NCBI GenBank assembly: GCA_000165345.1
Contig: CM000430.1
Span: 704,001 to 768,000, forward strand
Direction: 5' to 3'
Length of the DNA stretch: 64,000 nucleotides
Below, piece after piece: positions 45,112 through 52,449 of this stretch. A program made the position numbers and the translations under genes. The first letter of the stretch is position 1; every line of letters begins with the position of its first letter. The notes below the pieces were generated by a model that saw only the letters and a program-made list of their open reading frames with translations, ran no database searches and was not told the DNA's origin.

Positions 45112-48100
45112 ATGTTTGTAGATTCAACAAAAACAACAAGAAACAGGAACTCATGTAGTAGGGATATACTAAATGGAGGAGGAGTTGTTCCATTAGATGA
45201 CGATAATGTGTTTTGGATGAAAATAGAGGATGAATATTTTGGCAAAATTGATGATAGAATGAAAGATATTTTGAAATTCCATATTCATTCATCCGAATAT
45301 ATTCTGAACATAATAAATGATAATTTTTTAAATCAGTATCAAGAAAAAGAACAGAGTAATTTTGTTAAAACGAGTATGACTTTAATGGAAGGACTTAAAG
45401 GTTGGAATCGGGTTCCTAGGGAGATAAATGGAGAAGGATTTGGGTTATTTGAAAATAATGGAGAATTACAGAATATATTGGATGGATACATTCAAGATCC
45501 TCTAAAAGAGGAGCAGAATAGATTATTGGATTTTGAGGATAAAGATAAAGAAATTTGTGATGAGAAAAGGATAAAGAGTATAAGTTTAACTTTAAGTATT
45601 CCGCCATTAACCAAGCCAACAGATTTTCCAAGAGAATTAATTCATTGTAGGAGTTTGAGAGATATTTTATATAATTTAGTAAAAATACAATGTGCATATA
45701 AATATACGCGTTTAAATAATAGTAGAAATTTATACAGTATATTAGATATAAAGGAAGGCCTTGATATTCAAGACAAGAGTTTAAATGGTACATGCAATTA
45801 TATTTGCCTATTTCCTGATATAATATCTGGTCCAAGCGTTGAATGGAGGAATAGTTTAAATGAATTAGACAAAGAGAAGCTGATTTTTAAGGATGAGAAT
45901 TATTATAATTATAATGATACGTCAGATGAATGGATTTTTAATATTAATAATAGGATTGAAAATATGAAACTTAGAAGAAGTTTATTGGATACTAATCATT
46001 TACTTCCTTATAATTATTATAAAAGTGAATTGAAAGAAGAAAAAGATGAGAATATGATATTAAATGATAATATGTCAAAACAAGAGGGTAATAATAAAAT
46101 TAAAAGTATTCTTGGAACAGGAGAAGGTTTGAAAGAGAATAATTACGAGTATTTTAGAATGGACCCCAAAGATTTAGTTCCAGTAGTTGACTTAGAAGAT
46201 AATTTATATGAAGAAAGCATTAGTACAGTAAGTAAGATAAAGAGAGCAAAAAGTTTTGGTGATTTCTTTCAAGAAAATATACATATTTCCCCAAATAAAC
46301 GGCTAGATGAATATAATTTGGAAATAATAGATGATTTAGAGAATTTGAATAAATCATCAGAAAAAAATAAATCAGGATACTTGAACCTTTCTTCAATAAT
46401 GGATTCAAATAAGAAAATAGATTTTCAAATTGGTAATACGTTAAATAACGGCTGCTATATTTTACAAGATATATCTCAAAATAGTTTGAATGAATATAAT
46501 AATGGAGAGTTTGACCAAAGATACTTAAATAGAGAAAAAGATAAGGAATTGAGTGAAGTATCAATTTCTTTAATCAGAAGACTTAGATATATTTCAAGTT
46601 TAAAATTAGATATTTTTCGTGAAATATTATCTAGAGTAGAAAATGAGCGTCAACCAAATCCAAATTATTGGTATAGGAAAGAATATGAGCTAAATGATTA
46701 TTATAGAAGAAAACAATATGATATTGGATATAACTATACATTAGAAAGACAAGCAAGAGATTTGGAGAAGTTTAGATTAGCTTGTATTGAGTCCAAGTAT
46801 TTACCAAATGAATGGCAAGAAACAGCTTTATGTTCAATTTGTGGTAATGATACAGATTGGGATGAAGATCCAATATATTTTTGTGATGGATGTTATCAAC
46901 CAGCACATCATTCTTGTGTGAACCCAAAACAACCTTTTAGATATAATTCTACAAGAATGTTGAATGTATTAGAAAGGGAGAAAAAGTGTCAACAGGGAGA
47001 TCTTGATAGTTCTAATCCAAAAAAGAAGGAGGATGAAGTTGATGAGGATGATCAATGGCTTTGTGATGTTTGTTTGAATATAAAGAATCAATTACTTGAT
47101 CATCAATATTTATTTTTTGGGATAATTCGAATGATTAGTGGTCCAAGAGATAAAGAGACAATTAATCAAATAATTAAATCTATTCAAATGAATGTTAATC
47201 CATTTTTAAATCAGTTAATATCATATAATGTCATTTCATCATCAATTAATGATCAAAGTTTTACTGATCCGATAATATTTCCATGGATTAATGATTGGAT
47301 TTTTCCAGAAATTTCTCAAGATGATGATTCAGAATCACATCAAGAAGAAGAAAATAATAGAGTTGTAATCACAGAAAGAAGAAAAGGAAGGCCAAGAAAA
47401 ACTCCTTTATTATCTTTAACAACTTTAAACAAGAGTAGTTTTAAATACTTTACATTTAATTTTTCGAATATTAATCCGAAAAGTATACATAAAAATGTAC
47501 AAGAAGAAGATACAGAATGCCAAACTAATGCTAGCAATGTAAGTAATCATGAAAATGATTTTGATTTTGATAATCAAAATTATCATCACTTTGAATGGAT
47601 TCCTACATATCAGATACCTTATAATTTTGCAAATTTGGAAATATTTAAGATGCAAATCTTTAATCCTGTTAAGTGGTACAAAAAACAAGAAGCAATAAGG
47701 AGAGCAAATCAAACTCCTCCTCCGACATTAATTTCTAGTATTCAATCAAATATATACGAGGATAACGATATATTAATTGAGGAAAATAATAATATACGAA
47801 CAAAAAGCCGTGGATCTTCTTATTACACTGGTTTAAAATATGATGATAATTGCCATCATCAACGTAACAATAAAGTTGAAACAATTGGAGGAGAATTGCA
47901 AGAACAAAGAGTATTGGATATTTTTAAGCATGATGAGGCAATAATCAAACAATTAGAGGAGAAGAAAGTGATAATTTATGATAAACAAAATTATTCTTAT
48001 AAAATTAAGATTAAAGTACCTATTTGTCAGTTATGTGGTTATGATGCATATTGCAGATCTGGTGGTATAATGAAAAAGACTGTGGATGGATTCTGGGCTC

Positions 48101-52449: not shown

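What the first reader, a model, noticed from the sequence alone, without database searches (positions are those of the whole stretch)
45112..52449. Giant PHD / ePHD / ePHD / PHD chromatin protein with an AT-hook, preceded by a 1.7-kb gene-free regulatory region
The domain order (a canonical PHD, two extended PHDs of the PZP/ePHD type with the conserved W-x-H and C-terminal CxxC...H...C pattern, and a C-terminal PHD) together with RRKGRPRKT suggests a reader of histone tails coupled to AT-rich DNA binding. The gene follows the longest intergenic region in the window (43387..45111), which contains G-box, ACCGGTAT and CATGCATGCACGCACGCAC elements. The ORF-track start (45091) is a GTG, so the true start is likely ATG 45112. 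Perfect Ser-encoding microsatellites (TCA/TCT; 50889..50937, 51877..51970, 52085..52145) sit in its C-terminal half.
Basis: partly seen in the sequence, partly recalled or inferred. Interest (0 to 1): 0.5.

Follow-up and report, generated by a model that had tools for sequence, protein, structure and literature searches.

The report
Cryptosporidium orthologue of chromatin reader PHD1
This 7.3-kb single-exon gene of Cryptosporidium parvum encodes the parasite's version of PHD1, a giant multi-zinc-finger protein that in malaria parasites and Toxoplasma belongs to the GCN5 histone-acetylating complex, so it is a real but essentially expected gene.

Summary
Window 45112..52449 (+) is one 2445-aa ORF, identical to the gene model in two C. 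parvum assemblies. Pfam and PDB searches recover a PHD, two extended PHDs and a C-terminal PHD in the stated order. An AT hook (ERRKGRPRKTP) is invariant in five Cryptosporidium species.

An exhaustive profile search finds collinear homologues across Apicomplexa and in Perkinsus. The four published domain sequences of P. falciparum PHD1 (PF3D7_1008100: PHD-SF, ePHD, ePHD, PHD_TAF3, plus AT hooks) map one-to-one onto the four Cp domains; PfPHD2 domains do not. Complex membership and H3K4me3 binding are inferred, not shown.

Corrections:
- There is a fifth, C4C4 PHD-like finger before ePHD2.
- PHD1 carries a 46-residue insertion.
- Only one of the three Ser repeats is a perfect microsatellite.
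- The 1.7-kb upstream region is a divergent intergenic region whose length is conserved in the genus.

Both structure predictions failed. Interest is low to moderate: a new member of a known kind.

The parts
45112..52449 (+). Single-exon CDS, 2445 aa plus stop: C. parvum PHD1 orthologue
   Evidence: ORF. Exact product called on two C. parvum assemblies. Orthologues in 6 other Cryptosporidium species.
45208..45321 (+). N-terminal motif (aa 33-70, FWMKIEDEYFGKIDDRMKDILKFHIHSSEYILNII), conserved at the extreme N-terminus across Apicomplexa
   Evidence: Local hmmsearch and alignment: P. inui 2.5e-7, Besnoitia 5.5e-7, T. gondii 1e-5. Function unknown.
46549..46830 (+). Conserved region preceding PHD1 (aa 480-573)
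   Evidence: Part of the best-conserved collinear block, profile positions ~455-600, in all apicomplexan homologues. No Pfam or PDB match.
46831..47073 (+). PHD1 (aa 574-654): C574,C577,C591,C594,H599,C602 then a 46-aa insertion then C651,C654
   Evidence: Pfam PHD 25.3 bits on a fragment. 50% identity to PfPHD1 PHD-SF, 3.9e-9. Ligands checked. Perkinsus homologue has no insertion.
47374..47406 (+). AT hook (aa 755-765, ERRKGRPRKTP) in the PHD1-ePHD1 linker
   Evidence: All 11 residues invariant in 5 Cryptosporidium species. A GRP core lies in the same linker in P. inui PHD1. PfPHD1 is reported to have two AT hooks.
48025..48342 (+). ePHD1 (aa 972-1077), zinc knuckle plus atypical PHD, 12 Cys/His ligands
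   Evidence: PF13832 E=1e-14. BRPF1 and JADE1 PZP structures are the best PDB matches. 31% identity to the first PfPHD1 ePHD, 3.3e-15.
48439..49146 (+). Conserved region seen only in Cryptosporidium (aa 1110-1345), with the hydrophobic stretch MGFGPWFSFFYYWKFIPLTFYYNII
   Evidence: Near-invariant in 5 species. No counterpart in other apicomplexans. No Pfam or PDB match. AF2 model unusable, pLDDT 32.
49333..49707 (+). Fifth zinc finger (aa 1408-1532), C4C4 PHD-like/RING-like, with two low-complexity insertions
   Evidence: Ligands C1408,C1411,C1468,C1471,C1476,C1479,C1529,C1532. Core CxxCNVxxCxxC conserved in T. gondii, Babesia, Theileria, Eimeria and P. inui. Perkinsus has His at ligand 5. TgPHD1 is described as having PHD and RING domains.
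49756..50280 (+). ePHD2 (aa 1549-1723)
   Evidence: PF13771 E=1e-11 on the whole protein, 4e-9 on a fragment. 35% identity to the second PfPHD1 ePHD, 5.9e-11. Ligands checked.
50956..51069 (+). Short conserved block (aa 1949-1986, DISYINKWEDLIQILVYEVVSRFVYGIGIPKQK)
   Evidence: Invariant columns in 5 Cryptosporidium species. Function unknown.
51526..51684 (+). C-terminal PHD (aa 2139-2191), TAF3/PHF2/KDM5-like. Candidate methyl-lysine cage Y2146, W2157, W2166
   Evidence: Pfam PHD 23.9 bits. PDB matches PHF2 9e-6, KDM5B 2e-5, KDM5A, TAF3, BPTF. 37.5% identity to PfPHD1 PHD_TAF3, 2.9e-11. Cage positions aligned across Apicomplexa.
51685..51729 (+). Basic tail after the PHD (aa 2192-2206, LKRKQKGKRGRKRKN). 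RGRKRK is invariant. Not a canonical AT hook (no GRP); possibly a nuclear localisation signal
   Evidence: Basic tails follow the PHD in the TAF3 and PHF2 alignments as well.
50889..50937 (+). Ser-coding compound microsatellite (TCA)n(TCT)7, perfect
51877..51970 (+). 31-codon poly-Ser run of mixed TCA/TCT/TCG/TCC, imperfect; absent from the other species
   Evidence: TRF 75-83% matches. Sequence. Alignment columns 2426-2457.
52085..52145 (+). Interrupted Ser run (TCA/TCT/TCC with one CCT)
43387..45111 (.). 1725-bp divergent intergenic region between an RS-repeat protein gene (41761..43386, -) and the PHD1 gene. 21% G+C, no ORF over 53 aa, no tRNA or Rfam hit
   Evidence: Length conserved: 1714 bp in C. 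meleagridis, 1665 bp in chipmunk genotype I, 1389 bp in C. bovis.
44529..44627 (+). Most conserved non-coding block. Core GCGCAAAGTGGGAGGATGTGTGAAATTAAGAGACGGTAACGTGGAA (44562..44607), just downstream of an A13T6 run
   Evidence: Three-species identity 0.92-0.96. Core recognisable in C. bovis. Lies 418-546 nt upstream of the ATG in four species. Unique in the window.
44860..45059 (+). Second conserved non-coding block, directly upstream of the start codon, containing a 9-codon upstream ORF (44870..44899)
   Evidence: Three-species identity 0.82-0.94, against a CDS median of 0.77 and third codon positions of 0.68. Not detected in C. bovis.

Best explanation
The gene encodes the Cryptosporidium parvum orthologue of the apicomplexan protein PHD1 (PfPHD1, PF3D7_1008100; TgPHD1). 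PHD1 is a giant, mostly low-complexity nuclear protein whose folded parts are zinc-finger chromatin readers.

Shown here:
- Five Cys/His modules in the order PHD1, AT hook, ePHD1, C4C4 PHD-like finger, ePHD2, C-terminal TAF3-type PHD.
- The same order in coccidia, piroplasms, Plasmodium, and compact Perkinsus homologues.
- One-to-one sequence correspondence with the four published PfPHD1 domains.

Inferred from the orthologues:
- The protein is a reader/scaffold subunit of the GCN5-ADA2 (SAGA/PAGA-like) histone acetyltransferase complex.
- Its C-terminal PHD docks on H3K4me3/2 at active promoters through Y2146, W2157 and W2166.
- The two PHD+ePHD (PZP-like) units bind the H3 tail and DNA.
- The AT hook adds minor-groove contacts in the AT-rich genome.
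- Together these hold GCN5 on promoter nucleosomes for H3K9/K14/K18 acetylation.

The poly-Ser and poly-Asn tracts are fast-evolving spacers.
For: An exhaustive HMMER search of 1.84 billion representatives with a Cryptosporidium profile gave a discrete group of 14 hits below 1e-30 and 24 below 1e-10. Outside Cryptosporidium the strongest are giant proteins of Besnoitia, Toxoplasma, Theileria, Babesia, Eimeria and Plasmodium; weaker members include a gregarine and Perkinsus. Generic ePHD proteins follow at 1e-11 or weaker.

A full-length Cryptosporidium profile hits these proteins in 4-7 collinear blocks: N-terminal motif, pre-PHD1 plus PHD1, ePHD1, finger5 plus ePHD2, and a C-terminal PHD at the extreme C-terminus.

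The published PfPHD1 domain sequences map to the following positions:
- Cp 573-606, 50% identity, 3.9e-9.
- Cp 972-1077, 31% identity, 3.3e-15.
- Cp 1600-1668, 35% identity, 5.9e-11.
- Cp 2139-2191, 37.5% identity, 2.9e-11.
They are 78-85% identical to the P. inui hit P0016. PfPHD2 domains match only weakly and out of order.

PfPHD1 co-purifies with PfGCN5 and PfADA2, has two AT hooks, and its fourth PHD is reported to prefer H3K4me3 (PMC8396726). TgPHD1 is stated to correspond to PfPHD1, co-purifies with GCN5b/ADA2-A/SGF29 and co-occupies transcription start sites (PMC13601556).

Cage positions Y2146, W2157 and W2166 are invariant in Cryptosporidium and aromatic across Apicomplexa. W2157 and W2166 align with the two Trp of KDM5A PHD3 and with the TAF3/PHF2 positions.

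C. parvum has a GCN5-like acetylase with a bromodomain, cgd3_3190 (supplement of PMC8638923). It has an ADA2 included in a published tree, and H3K4me3 is present on its chromatin at all stages (PMC9487757).
Against: - No experiment on the Cryptosporidium protein was found.
- Complex membership and histone binding are transferred from orthologues that themselves differ. TgPHD1 loss is mild and does not displace GCN5b, whereas PfPHD1 truncation disrupts the complex.
- The first cage position is Thr2138 in C. parvum and Met in C. bovis, where other apicomplexans have Tyr or Phe.
- Large blocks conserved only in Cryptosporidium (aa ~90-300, 1110-1345) have no counterpart elsewhere.
- Reciprocal best-hit against the full C. 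parvum proteome could not be run.
- Both AF2 models were unusable, so no structural confirmation exists.
Confidence: 0.7

Rival explanations
1. It is a BRPF/JADE-type scaffold. Its PZP-like modules would tether a MYST-family acetyltransferase (MOZ/HBO1-like) rather than GCN5.
For: The best solved relatives of ePHD1 are the BRPF1 and JADE1 PZP domains. One BRPF1 PZP chain aligns in order with Cp 572-604 and 982-1056. Compact Perkinsus and metagenomic homologues have a contiguous PHD+ePHD, which is a PZP.
Against: No EPL1/EPc-N-type or other scaffold domain was detected in any non-finger region. The Plasmodium and Toxoplasma orthologues co-purify with GCN5/ADA2. PZP domains occur in many unrelated complexes.
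Confidence: 0.08
2. It is orthologous to PHD1 but has been rewired in Cryptosporidium. It would act as a stand-alone architectural chromatin or DNA-binding factor, or in another complex, through its genus-specific conserved regions.
For: About 500 residues of blocks conserved only in Cryptosporidium, with no homologue elsewhere. GCN5 complexes already differ between Plasmodium and Toxoplasma. The first aromatic cage position is lost.
Against: The partner genes exist in C. parvum.
Confidence: 0.15
3. The C4C4 finger makes it a RING-type ubiquitin or SUMO E3 ligase acting on chromatin.
For: Eight-cysteine pattern at aa 1408-1532. The TgPHD1 model is described as containing PHD and RING domains.
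Against: No RING family was reported by Pfam at E<=1. The Perkinsus homologue has the PHD-type His at ligand 5. The finger sits directly before an ePHD, as in a PZP. No ligase activity is reported for the orthologues.
Confidence: 0.04

Closest known systems
PfPHD1 (PF3D7_1008100), subunit of the P. falciparum GCN5-ADA2 complex (Miao et al. 2021, PMC8396726; Hoeijmakers et al. 2019, PMC7145593)
   Same: Order PHD-SF, ePHD, ePHD, TAF3-type PHD at the extreme C-terminus. An AT hook lies in the PHD1-ePHD1 linker (seen in the P. inui orthologue). All four domains are pairwise significant and collinear.
   Different: The Cp protein has 2445 aa, whereas the last published PfPHD1 domain ends at residue 3850. 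PHD1 carries a 46-aa insertion in Cp, against roughly 220 aa in P. inui. Cp has one canonical AT hook, PfPHD1 is reported to have two. The cage residue before the first Cys is Thr in Cp and Tyr in Plasmodium. Cp has conserved blocks seen only in Cryptosporidium. There are no experimental data for Cp.
TgPHD1, subunit of the T. gondii GCN5b/ADA2-A complexes (PMC13601556)
   Same: The T. gondii homologue P0144 (5658 aa) matches in the same five blocks, including the N-terminal motif and the C4C4 finger. Its C-terminal PHD is 53% identical to that of PfPHD1.
   Different: That P0144 is the protein the paper calls TgPHD1 is my inference; the gene ID is not in the text I could read. It is more than twice as long as the Cp protein. 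Its AT-hook-like RGRP lies between ePHD1 and ePHD2.
PZP (PHD-zinc knuckle-PHD) modules of BRPF1, JADE1 and AF10
   Same: PHD1 and ePHD1 align with the two halves of the BRPF1 PZP. Compact Perkinsus homologues have them contiguous.
   Different: In C. parvum the halves are 317 residues apart with an AT hook between them. No MYST-scaffold regions were detected. It belongs to a different complex in the orthologues.
TAF3, PHF2, KDM5A/B and BPTF H3K4me3-reading PHD fingers
   Same: These are the best PDB matches of aa 2139-2191. The Trp before the His ligand and the aromatic residue before the second Cys pair are both conserved.
   Different: Cp has a 4-residue insertion in the first loop and lacks the aromatic residue just before the first Cys. 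That these PDB fingers read H3K4me3 is from my own knowledge of the literature.
SPC, the multi-PHD scaffold of the plant PAGA (ADA2A-GCN5) complex
   Same: A multi-PHD scaffold in an ADA3-independent GCN5 complex. The analogy is drawn in PMC13601556.
   Different: The paper names TgPZP1 (the PfPHD2 orthologue), not PHD1, as the closest SPC homologue. I did not test this.

Membership tests
Apicomplexan PHD1 (PfPHD1/TgPHD1) | Four PHD-type modules in the order PHD-SF, ePHD, ePHD, TAF3-type PHD, the last at the extreme C-terminus | tested here: met
   Pfam and PDB calls (5, 6, 51, 52). Collinear blocks in all homologues. The published PfPHD1 domain map.
Apicomplexan PHD1 (PfPHD1/TgPHD1) | Sequence closer to PfPHD1 than to the paralogous complex subunit PfPHD2 | tested here: met
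   All four PfPHD1 domains hit their Cp counterparts at 3e-15 to 4e-9, in order. PfPHD2 domains hit at 2e-7 or weaker, out of order, and only on generic ePHD cores. A reciprocal search against the whole C. parvum proteome was not possible.
Apicomplexan PHD1 (PfPHD1/TgPHD1) | AT hook(s) | tested here: met
   One canonical RKGRPRK at aa 757-763, invariant in 5 species. The second basic motif, RGRKRK at aa 2200-2205, lacks the GRP core.
Apicomplexan PHD1 (PfPHD1/TgPHD1) | Aromatic cage in the last PHD; H3K4me3/2 binding | tested here: inconclusive
   Three of four cage positions are aromatic and invariant (Y2146, W2157, W2166). The fourth is Thr2138. Binding itself is not testable here.
Apicomplexan PHD1 (PfPHD1/TgPHD1) | Physical association with GCN5 and ADA2 | not testable with these tools
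   Known only for the Plasmodium and Toxoplasma proteins.
PZP domain (BRPF/JADE/AF10 type) | PHD finger, zinc knuckle and atypical PHD forming one contiguous unit of about 170-200 residues | tested here: not met
   The parts are present and align with the BRPF1 PZP, but they are separated by 317 residues in Cp. They are contiguous in the Perkinsus homologue. Whether the halves still pack together could not be tested because the AF2 runs failed.
BRPF/JADE MYST-HAT scaffolds | EPc-N/EPL1-type HAT-binding regions flanking the PZP | tested here: not met
   No Pfam family at E<=1 in aa 1-540 or in the linkers. No PDB relative.
AT hook | G-R-P core flanked by Arg/Lys on both sides | tested here: met
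   The sequence ERRKGRPRKTP read directly. DNA binding itself was not tested.

The most novel reading that the evidence does not exclude
PHD1 is ancestrally a compact PZP-PZP-PHD protein, as in the ~1000-1160-aa Perkinsus and metagenomic homologues. In Apicomplexa both PZP units were pulled apart by long insertions: a 317-aa linker carrying an AT hook in C. parvum, with further insertions inside PHD1 and inside the C4C4 finger. The halves may still reassemble in space.

Separately, expression of the Cryptosporidium gene may be controlled by two unusually constrained non-coding elements. One is a ~50-nt element 418-546 nt upstream of the ATG, conserved as far as C. bovis. The other is a 200-nt block next to the ATG containing a mini upstream ORF. 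This would imply a long regulated 5' leader for a chromatin regulator.
Probability: 0.3. Interest if true: 0.4.

Novelty: new member of a known kind. Interest (0 to 1): 0.25.

Why it matters
Gene regulation in Cryptosporidium is almost unstudied. No C. parvum study of this protein turned up in the literature searches.

Assigning this gene to the PHD1 family gives a concrete handle on the parasite's GCN5 acetyltransferase machinery, a pathway discussed as a drug target in related parasites. It also names specific residues to mutate: W2157, W2166 and the AT hook.

The comparative picture also shows how the apicomplexan GCN5 scaffolds relate to ordinary PZP proteins.

It does not change what is known about the family. 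The domain content is already in public annotation, since the chipmunk genotype I orthologue is named '4x PHD domain containing'.

Tried and rejected
1. The third word-indexed homology search, using conserved blocks of the P. inui protein, returned nothing. Low-complexity words probably filled the candidate list. PfPHD1 identity was instead established from domain sequences printed in the paper's S2 Fig.
2. AlphaFold2 on aa 1391-1730 (finger5 plus ePHD2) and aa 1105-1420 (Cryptosporidium-only region), each with a 5-sequence alignment, gave mean pLDDT 28 and 32. No fold search was run, because matches to such models are meaningless.
3. Pfam, NCBIfam and PDB sequence searches of the non-finger regions found nothing.
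4. Rfam at gathering score and at E<=1, and a tRNA scan of the upstream region, found nothing.
5. The sigma-70 promoter and terminator scan does not apply to a eukaryote and was ignored.
6. I considered an upstream mini-exon (ATGTCAG|GTATAG at 44870) spliced to an acceptor at 45082/45083. I rejected it because the sequence between 45083 and the ATG has frame-breaking indels in C. meleagridis and chipmunk genotype I, and protein conservation starts exactly at Met1.
7. The 200-nt block next to the ATG was not found in C. bovis; the one weak match is out of order.
8. The CryptoDB gene ID could not be established. A published list has PHD proteins cgd2_1950 and cgd2_3540, but I could not link either to this locus, and a search for cgd2_3540 found no paper.
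Full report
**What the window is.** The window is AT-rich, 18-40% G+C in 2-kb windows, and packed with long uninterrupted ORFs. The 2445-aa product read from ATG 45112 is the called gene, residue for residue, on two chromosome-scale contigs of Cryptosporidium parvum: CP044421.1 of GCA_015245375.1 and CP029781.1 of GCA_031892065.1, each about 0.99 Mb. The DNA is identical to both from 2664 nt upstream of the ATG to 3 kb beyond the stop. 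Orthologues exist in C. meleagridis, chipmunk genotype I (named '4x PHD domain containing'), C. bovis, C. ryanae, C. canis and C. felis.

**Checking the observation.** ORF 45091..52449 is real and is the longest in the window.

- Pfam on the whole protein gives PF13832 at aa 972-1077 (E=1e-14) and PF13771 at aa 1597-1669 (E=1e-11). It also gives a partial PHD at aa 574-607, with 19.9 bits.
- On fragments, the first PHD scores 25.3 bits and the C-terminal PHD (aa 2139-2191) scores 23.9 bits. The cut-off is 24.
- PDB sequence searches support these calls. ePHD1 matches the BRPF1 and JADE1 PZP domains. The C-terminal finger matches PHF2, KDM5B, KDM5A, TAF3, PHF8, PHF23, BPTF and others.
- All expected zinc ligands are present and invariant in five species.
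- RRKGRPRKT is at aa 756-764. The eleven residues E755-P765 are invariant, while their surroundings vary.
- The three upstream motifs are at the stated places.

Start codon. The start at ATG 45112 is supported by three observations. The public gene models start there. All orthologues begin at the homologous Met. The 29 nt upstream carry 1-nt and 8-nt indels in the sister species.

- Only 50889..50937 is a perfect (compound) microsatellite. The other two Ser runs use mixed or interrupted codons. The 31-Ser run is absent from the other species.
- 43387..45111 is the longest ORF-free gap lying wholly inside the window. The gap 61976..64000 is longer but is truncated by the window end.
- PHD1 is not canonical. 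A 46-residue insertion separates H599/C602 from C651/C654.

**What it is.** A profile of aa 540-1725 from four Cryptosporidium species was searched against 1.84 billion representative proteins without a word index. It returned 129 proteins, with a sharp break in scores. Fourteen hits lie below 1e-30 and 24 below 1e-10. Generic ePHD proteins follow at 1e-11 or weaker.

Outside Cryptosporidium, the strongest hits are giant proteins:

- Besnoitia, 5751 aa.
- Toxoplasma, 5658 aa.
- Theileria, Babesia and Eimeria.
- Plasmodium inui, 3611 aa, mis-named a DNA methyltransferase.

Weaker members include Babesia microti, Cardiosporidium, the gregarine Porospora and Perkinsus chesapeaki (1164 aa).

A full-length Cryptosporidium profile hits each of them in the same order:

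1. a short motif at the extreme N-terminus;
2. a pre-PHD1 region plus PHD1;
3. ePHD1;
4. a CxxC-x4-CxxC finger plus ePHD2;
5. a PHD at the extreme C-terminus.

**Link to PfPHD1.** Miao et al. 2021 describe PfPHD1 (PF3D7_1008100) as a core subunit of the PfGCN5-PfADA2 complex. They give it four PHD-type domains (PHD-SF, ePHD, ePHD, PHD_TAF3) and two AT hooks. Only the fourth PHD is of the canonical H3K4me3/2-binding type, and it is reported to prefer H3K4me3. Their S2 Fig prints the domain sequences.

BLASTP of those sequences gives the following:

- The P. inui hit is 78-85% identical, so it is the PHD1 orthologue.
- Each PfPHD1 domain finds its counterpart in the Cp protein, in order:

| PfPHD1 domain | Cp residues | Identity | E-value |
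|---|---|---|---|
| PHD-SF | 573-606 | 50% | 3.9e-9 |
| ePHD (first) | 972-1077 | 31% | 3.3e-15 |
| ePHD (second) | 1600-1668 | 35% | 5.9e-11 |
| PHD_TAF3 | 2139-2191 | 37.5% | 2.9e-11 |

- The four PfPHD2 domains match only weakly, out of order, and only on generic ePHD cores.
- The T. gondii protein P0144 behaves like the Cp protein.

The 2026 Toxoplasma study states that TgPHD1 corresponds to PfPHD1. It also reports that TgPHD1 co-purifies with GCN5b, ADA2-A and SGF29, co-occupies transcription start sites with GCN5b, and has 'PHD and RING domains'. I conclude that the window gene is the C. parvum PHD1 orthologue.

**Refinements to the architecture.**

Fifth finger. Between the Cryptosporidium-only middle region and ePHD2 lies a fifth finger: C1408, C1411, C1468, C1471, C1476, C1479, C1529, C1532. 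Its core, CxxCNVxxCxxC, is conserved in T. gondii, Besnoitia, Babesia, Theileria, Eimeria and P. inui. In Perkinsus the fifth ligand is His, which is the PHD signature. This finger is likely the 'RING' of the TgPHD1 model.

Split PZP. In the compact Perkinsus and metagenomic homologues, Pfam places a PHD at aa 291-335 and an ePHD at aa 399-497. That is a contiguous PZP. One BRPF1 PZP chain aligns with Cp 572-604 and 982-1056. I therefore read the family as PZP, PZP-like, PHD. In C. parvum the first PZP is split by a 317-residue linker holding the AT hook, and PHD1 and the fifth finger each carry internal insertions. This reading is inferred from sequence. Both AlphaFold2 runs failed, with pLDDT 28 and 32.

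AT hook position. It is shared with Plasmodium (P. inui RKRGRP at 2067, in the PHD1-ePHD1 linker). It differs in Toxoplasma and Besnoitia, and no GRP hook is present in the Theileria, Babesia and Eimeria homologues examined.

Candidate cage. In the C-terminal PHD, Y2146, W2157 and W2166 are invariant in Cryptosporidium and aromatic throughout Apicomplexa. The residue before the first Cys is Tyr or Phe elsewhere, but Thr in C. parvum and Met in C. bovis. W2157 and W2166 align with the paired Trp of KDM5A PHD3. That those two Trp form the KDM5A cage is from my own knowledge.

**How it most likely works.**

Shown: the finger inventory, its order, its conservation and its orthology.

Inferred from the orthologues: the protein sits in the GCN5-ADA2 module and reads H3K4me3/2 with its last PHD. 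It would contact the H3 tail and DNA with the PZP-like units, and AT-rich DNA with the AT hook.

The prerequisites exist in C. parvum:

- a GCN5-like acetylase with a bromodomain, cgd3_3190;
- an ADA2;
- H3K4me3 on chromatin at all stages.

How much the complex depends on PHD1 differs between species. It matters for complex integrity in P. falciparum. In T. gondii it is dispensable for GCN5b occupancy. The weight of its role in Cryptosporidium is therefore open.

**The upstream region.** It is a divergent intergenic region. The neighbour at 41761..43386 on the minus strand encodes an Arg/Ser-repeat protein with no Pfam match.

Synteny and the long spacer are conserved: 1714 bp in C. meleagridis, 1665 bp in chipmunk genotype I and 1389 bp in C. 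bovis.

Most of the region has three-species identity of 0.5-0.7. That is about the level of third codon positions in the gene, 0.68. Two blocks stand out:

- 44529..44627, with identity 0.92-0.96.
- 44860..45059, with identity 0.82-0.94.

These values equal the best coding segments, whose maximum is 0.92.

The core of the first block is recognisable in C. bovis. It lies 418-546 nt upstream of the ATG in all four species, just after an A/T homopolymer run. It is unique in the window.

No tRNA, Rfam family or ORF over 53 aa lies in the region. Which gene each element serves, and where transcription starts, cannot be decided here.

**Verdict.** The gene is an uncharacterised member of a family already characterised in Plasmodium and Toxoplasma, and its domain content is already in public annotation. 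That makes it a new member of a known kind, of modest interest.

Noticed in passing
window 44562..44607 (block 44529..44627); L003 ~4470, L004 ~4531, L005 ~4583: A ~50-nt non-coding element, GCGCAAAGTGGGAGGATGTGTGAAATTAAGAGACGGTAACGTGGAA. It is identical or nearly so in three species and recognisable in C. bovis. It always lies 418-546 nt upstream of the PHD1 ATG and just after an A/T homopolymer run. It is unique in the window and has no Rfam match. It could be a core promoter or transcription start element.
   Followed up: partly
window 44860..45059: A 200-nt block directly upstream of the start codon, as conserved among three species (0.82-0.94) as the best coding domains. It contains a 9-codon upstream ORF (ATGTCAGGTATAGAATCTTACCCTGCATAA, 44870..44899) and a 45-nt perfectly conserved run (44887..44931). 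It was not found in C. bovis.
   Followed up: partly
window 41761..43386 (-), difference near 42447: The divergent upstream neighbour encodes an Arg/Ser-repeat-rich protein (RNSRD, SRNR and RTRS repeats) with a hydrophobic N-terminus and no Pfam match. The window differs from two other C. parvum assemblies inside one of its repeats, and public gene models give 495 or 537 aa. The repeat appears to be length-polymorphic.
   Followed up: partly
window 45208..45321 (aa 33-70): A short motif, FW..D.[EQ][YF]F......L...L..H..S.E, sits at the extreme N-terminus of PHD1 homologues from Cryptosporidium, Plasmodium, Toxoplasma, Besnoitia and Eimeria, despite a 3.5-fold range in protein length. It is a candidate docking motif.
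   Followed up: partly
window 48439..49146 (aa 1110-1345): A near-invariant region seen only in Cryptosporidium, with a very hydrophobic aromatic stretch (MGFGPWFSFFYYWKFIPLTFYYNII) that could be mistaken for a transmembrane helix. It has no homologue, Pfam or PDB match, and AF2 gave no confident model.
   Followed up: partly
P0016 (Plasmodium inui, XP_008816016.1): The P. inui PHD1 orthologue is named 'DNA (cytosine-5-)-methyltransferase' in GenBank and UniRef. Pfam finds only PHD and ePHD domains in it, so the name looks like an annotation error.
   Followed up: partly
window 52687..55266 (-), 56795..58147 (+), 38043..39848 (+): The neighbouring genes are unrelated housekeeping genes: an Nsp1-like nucleoporin convergent with PHD1, a PrsW-family intramembrane protease, and an SF3b subunit-2-like protein (DUF382 plus PSP). 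Gene order is conserved in C. meleagridis, chipmunk genotype I and largely in C. bovis.
   Followed up: yes
window 7920..9380 and 9415..10206 (-): Two adjacent minus-strand ORFs, both starting with non-ATG codons and separated by 34 nt, may be one gene interrupted by a short intron or a frameshift.
   Followed up: no
window 61976..64000: A 2025-bp stretch at the window's end with no ATG-ORF of 100 aa or more. It is longer than the region in the finding but is cut by the window edge.
   Followed up: no
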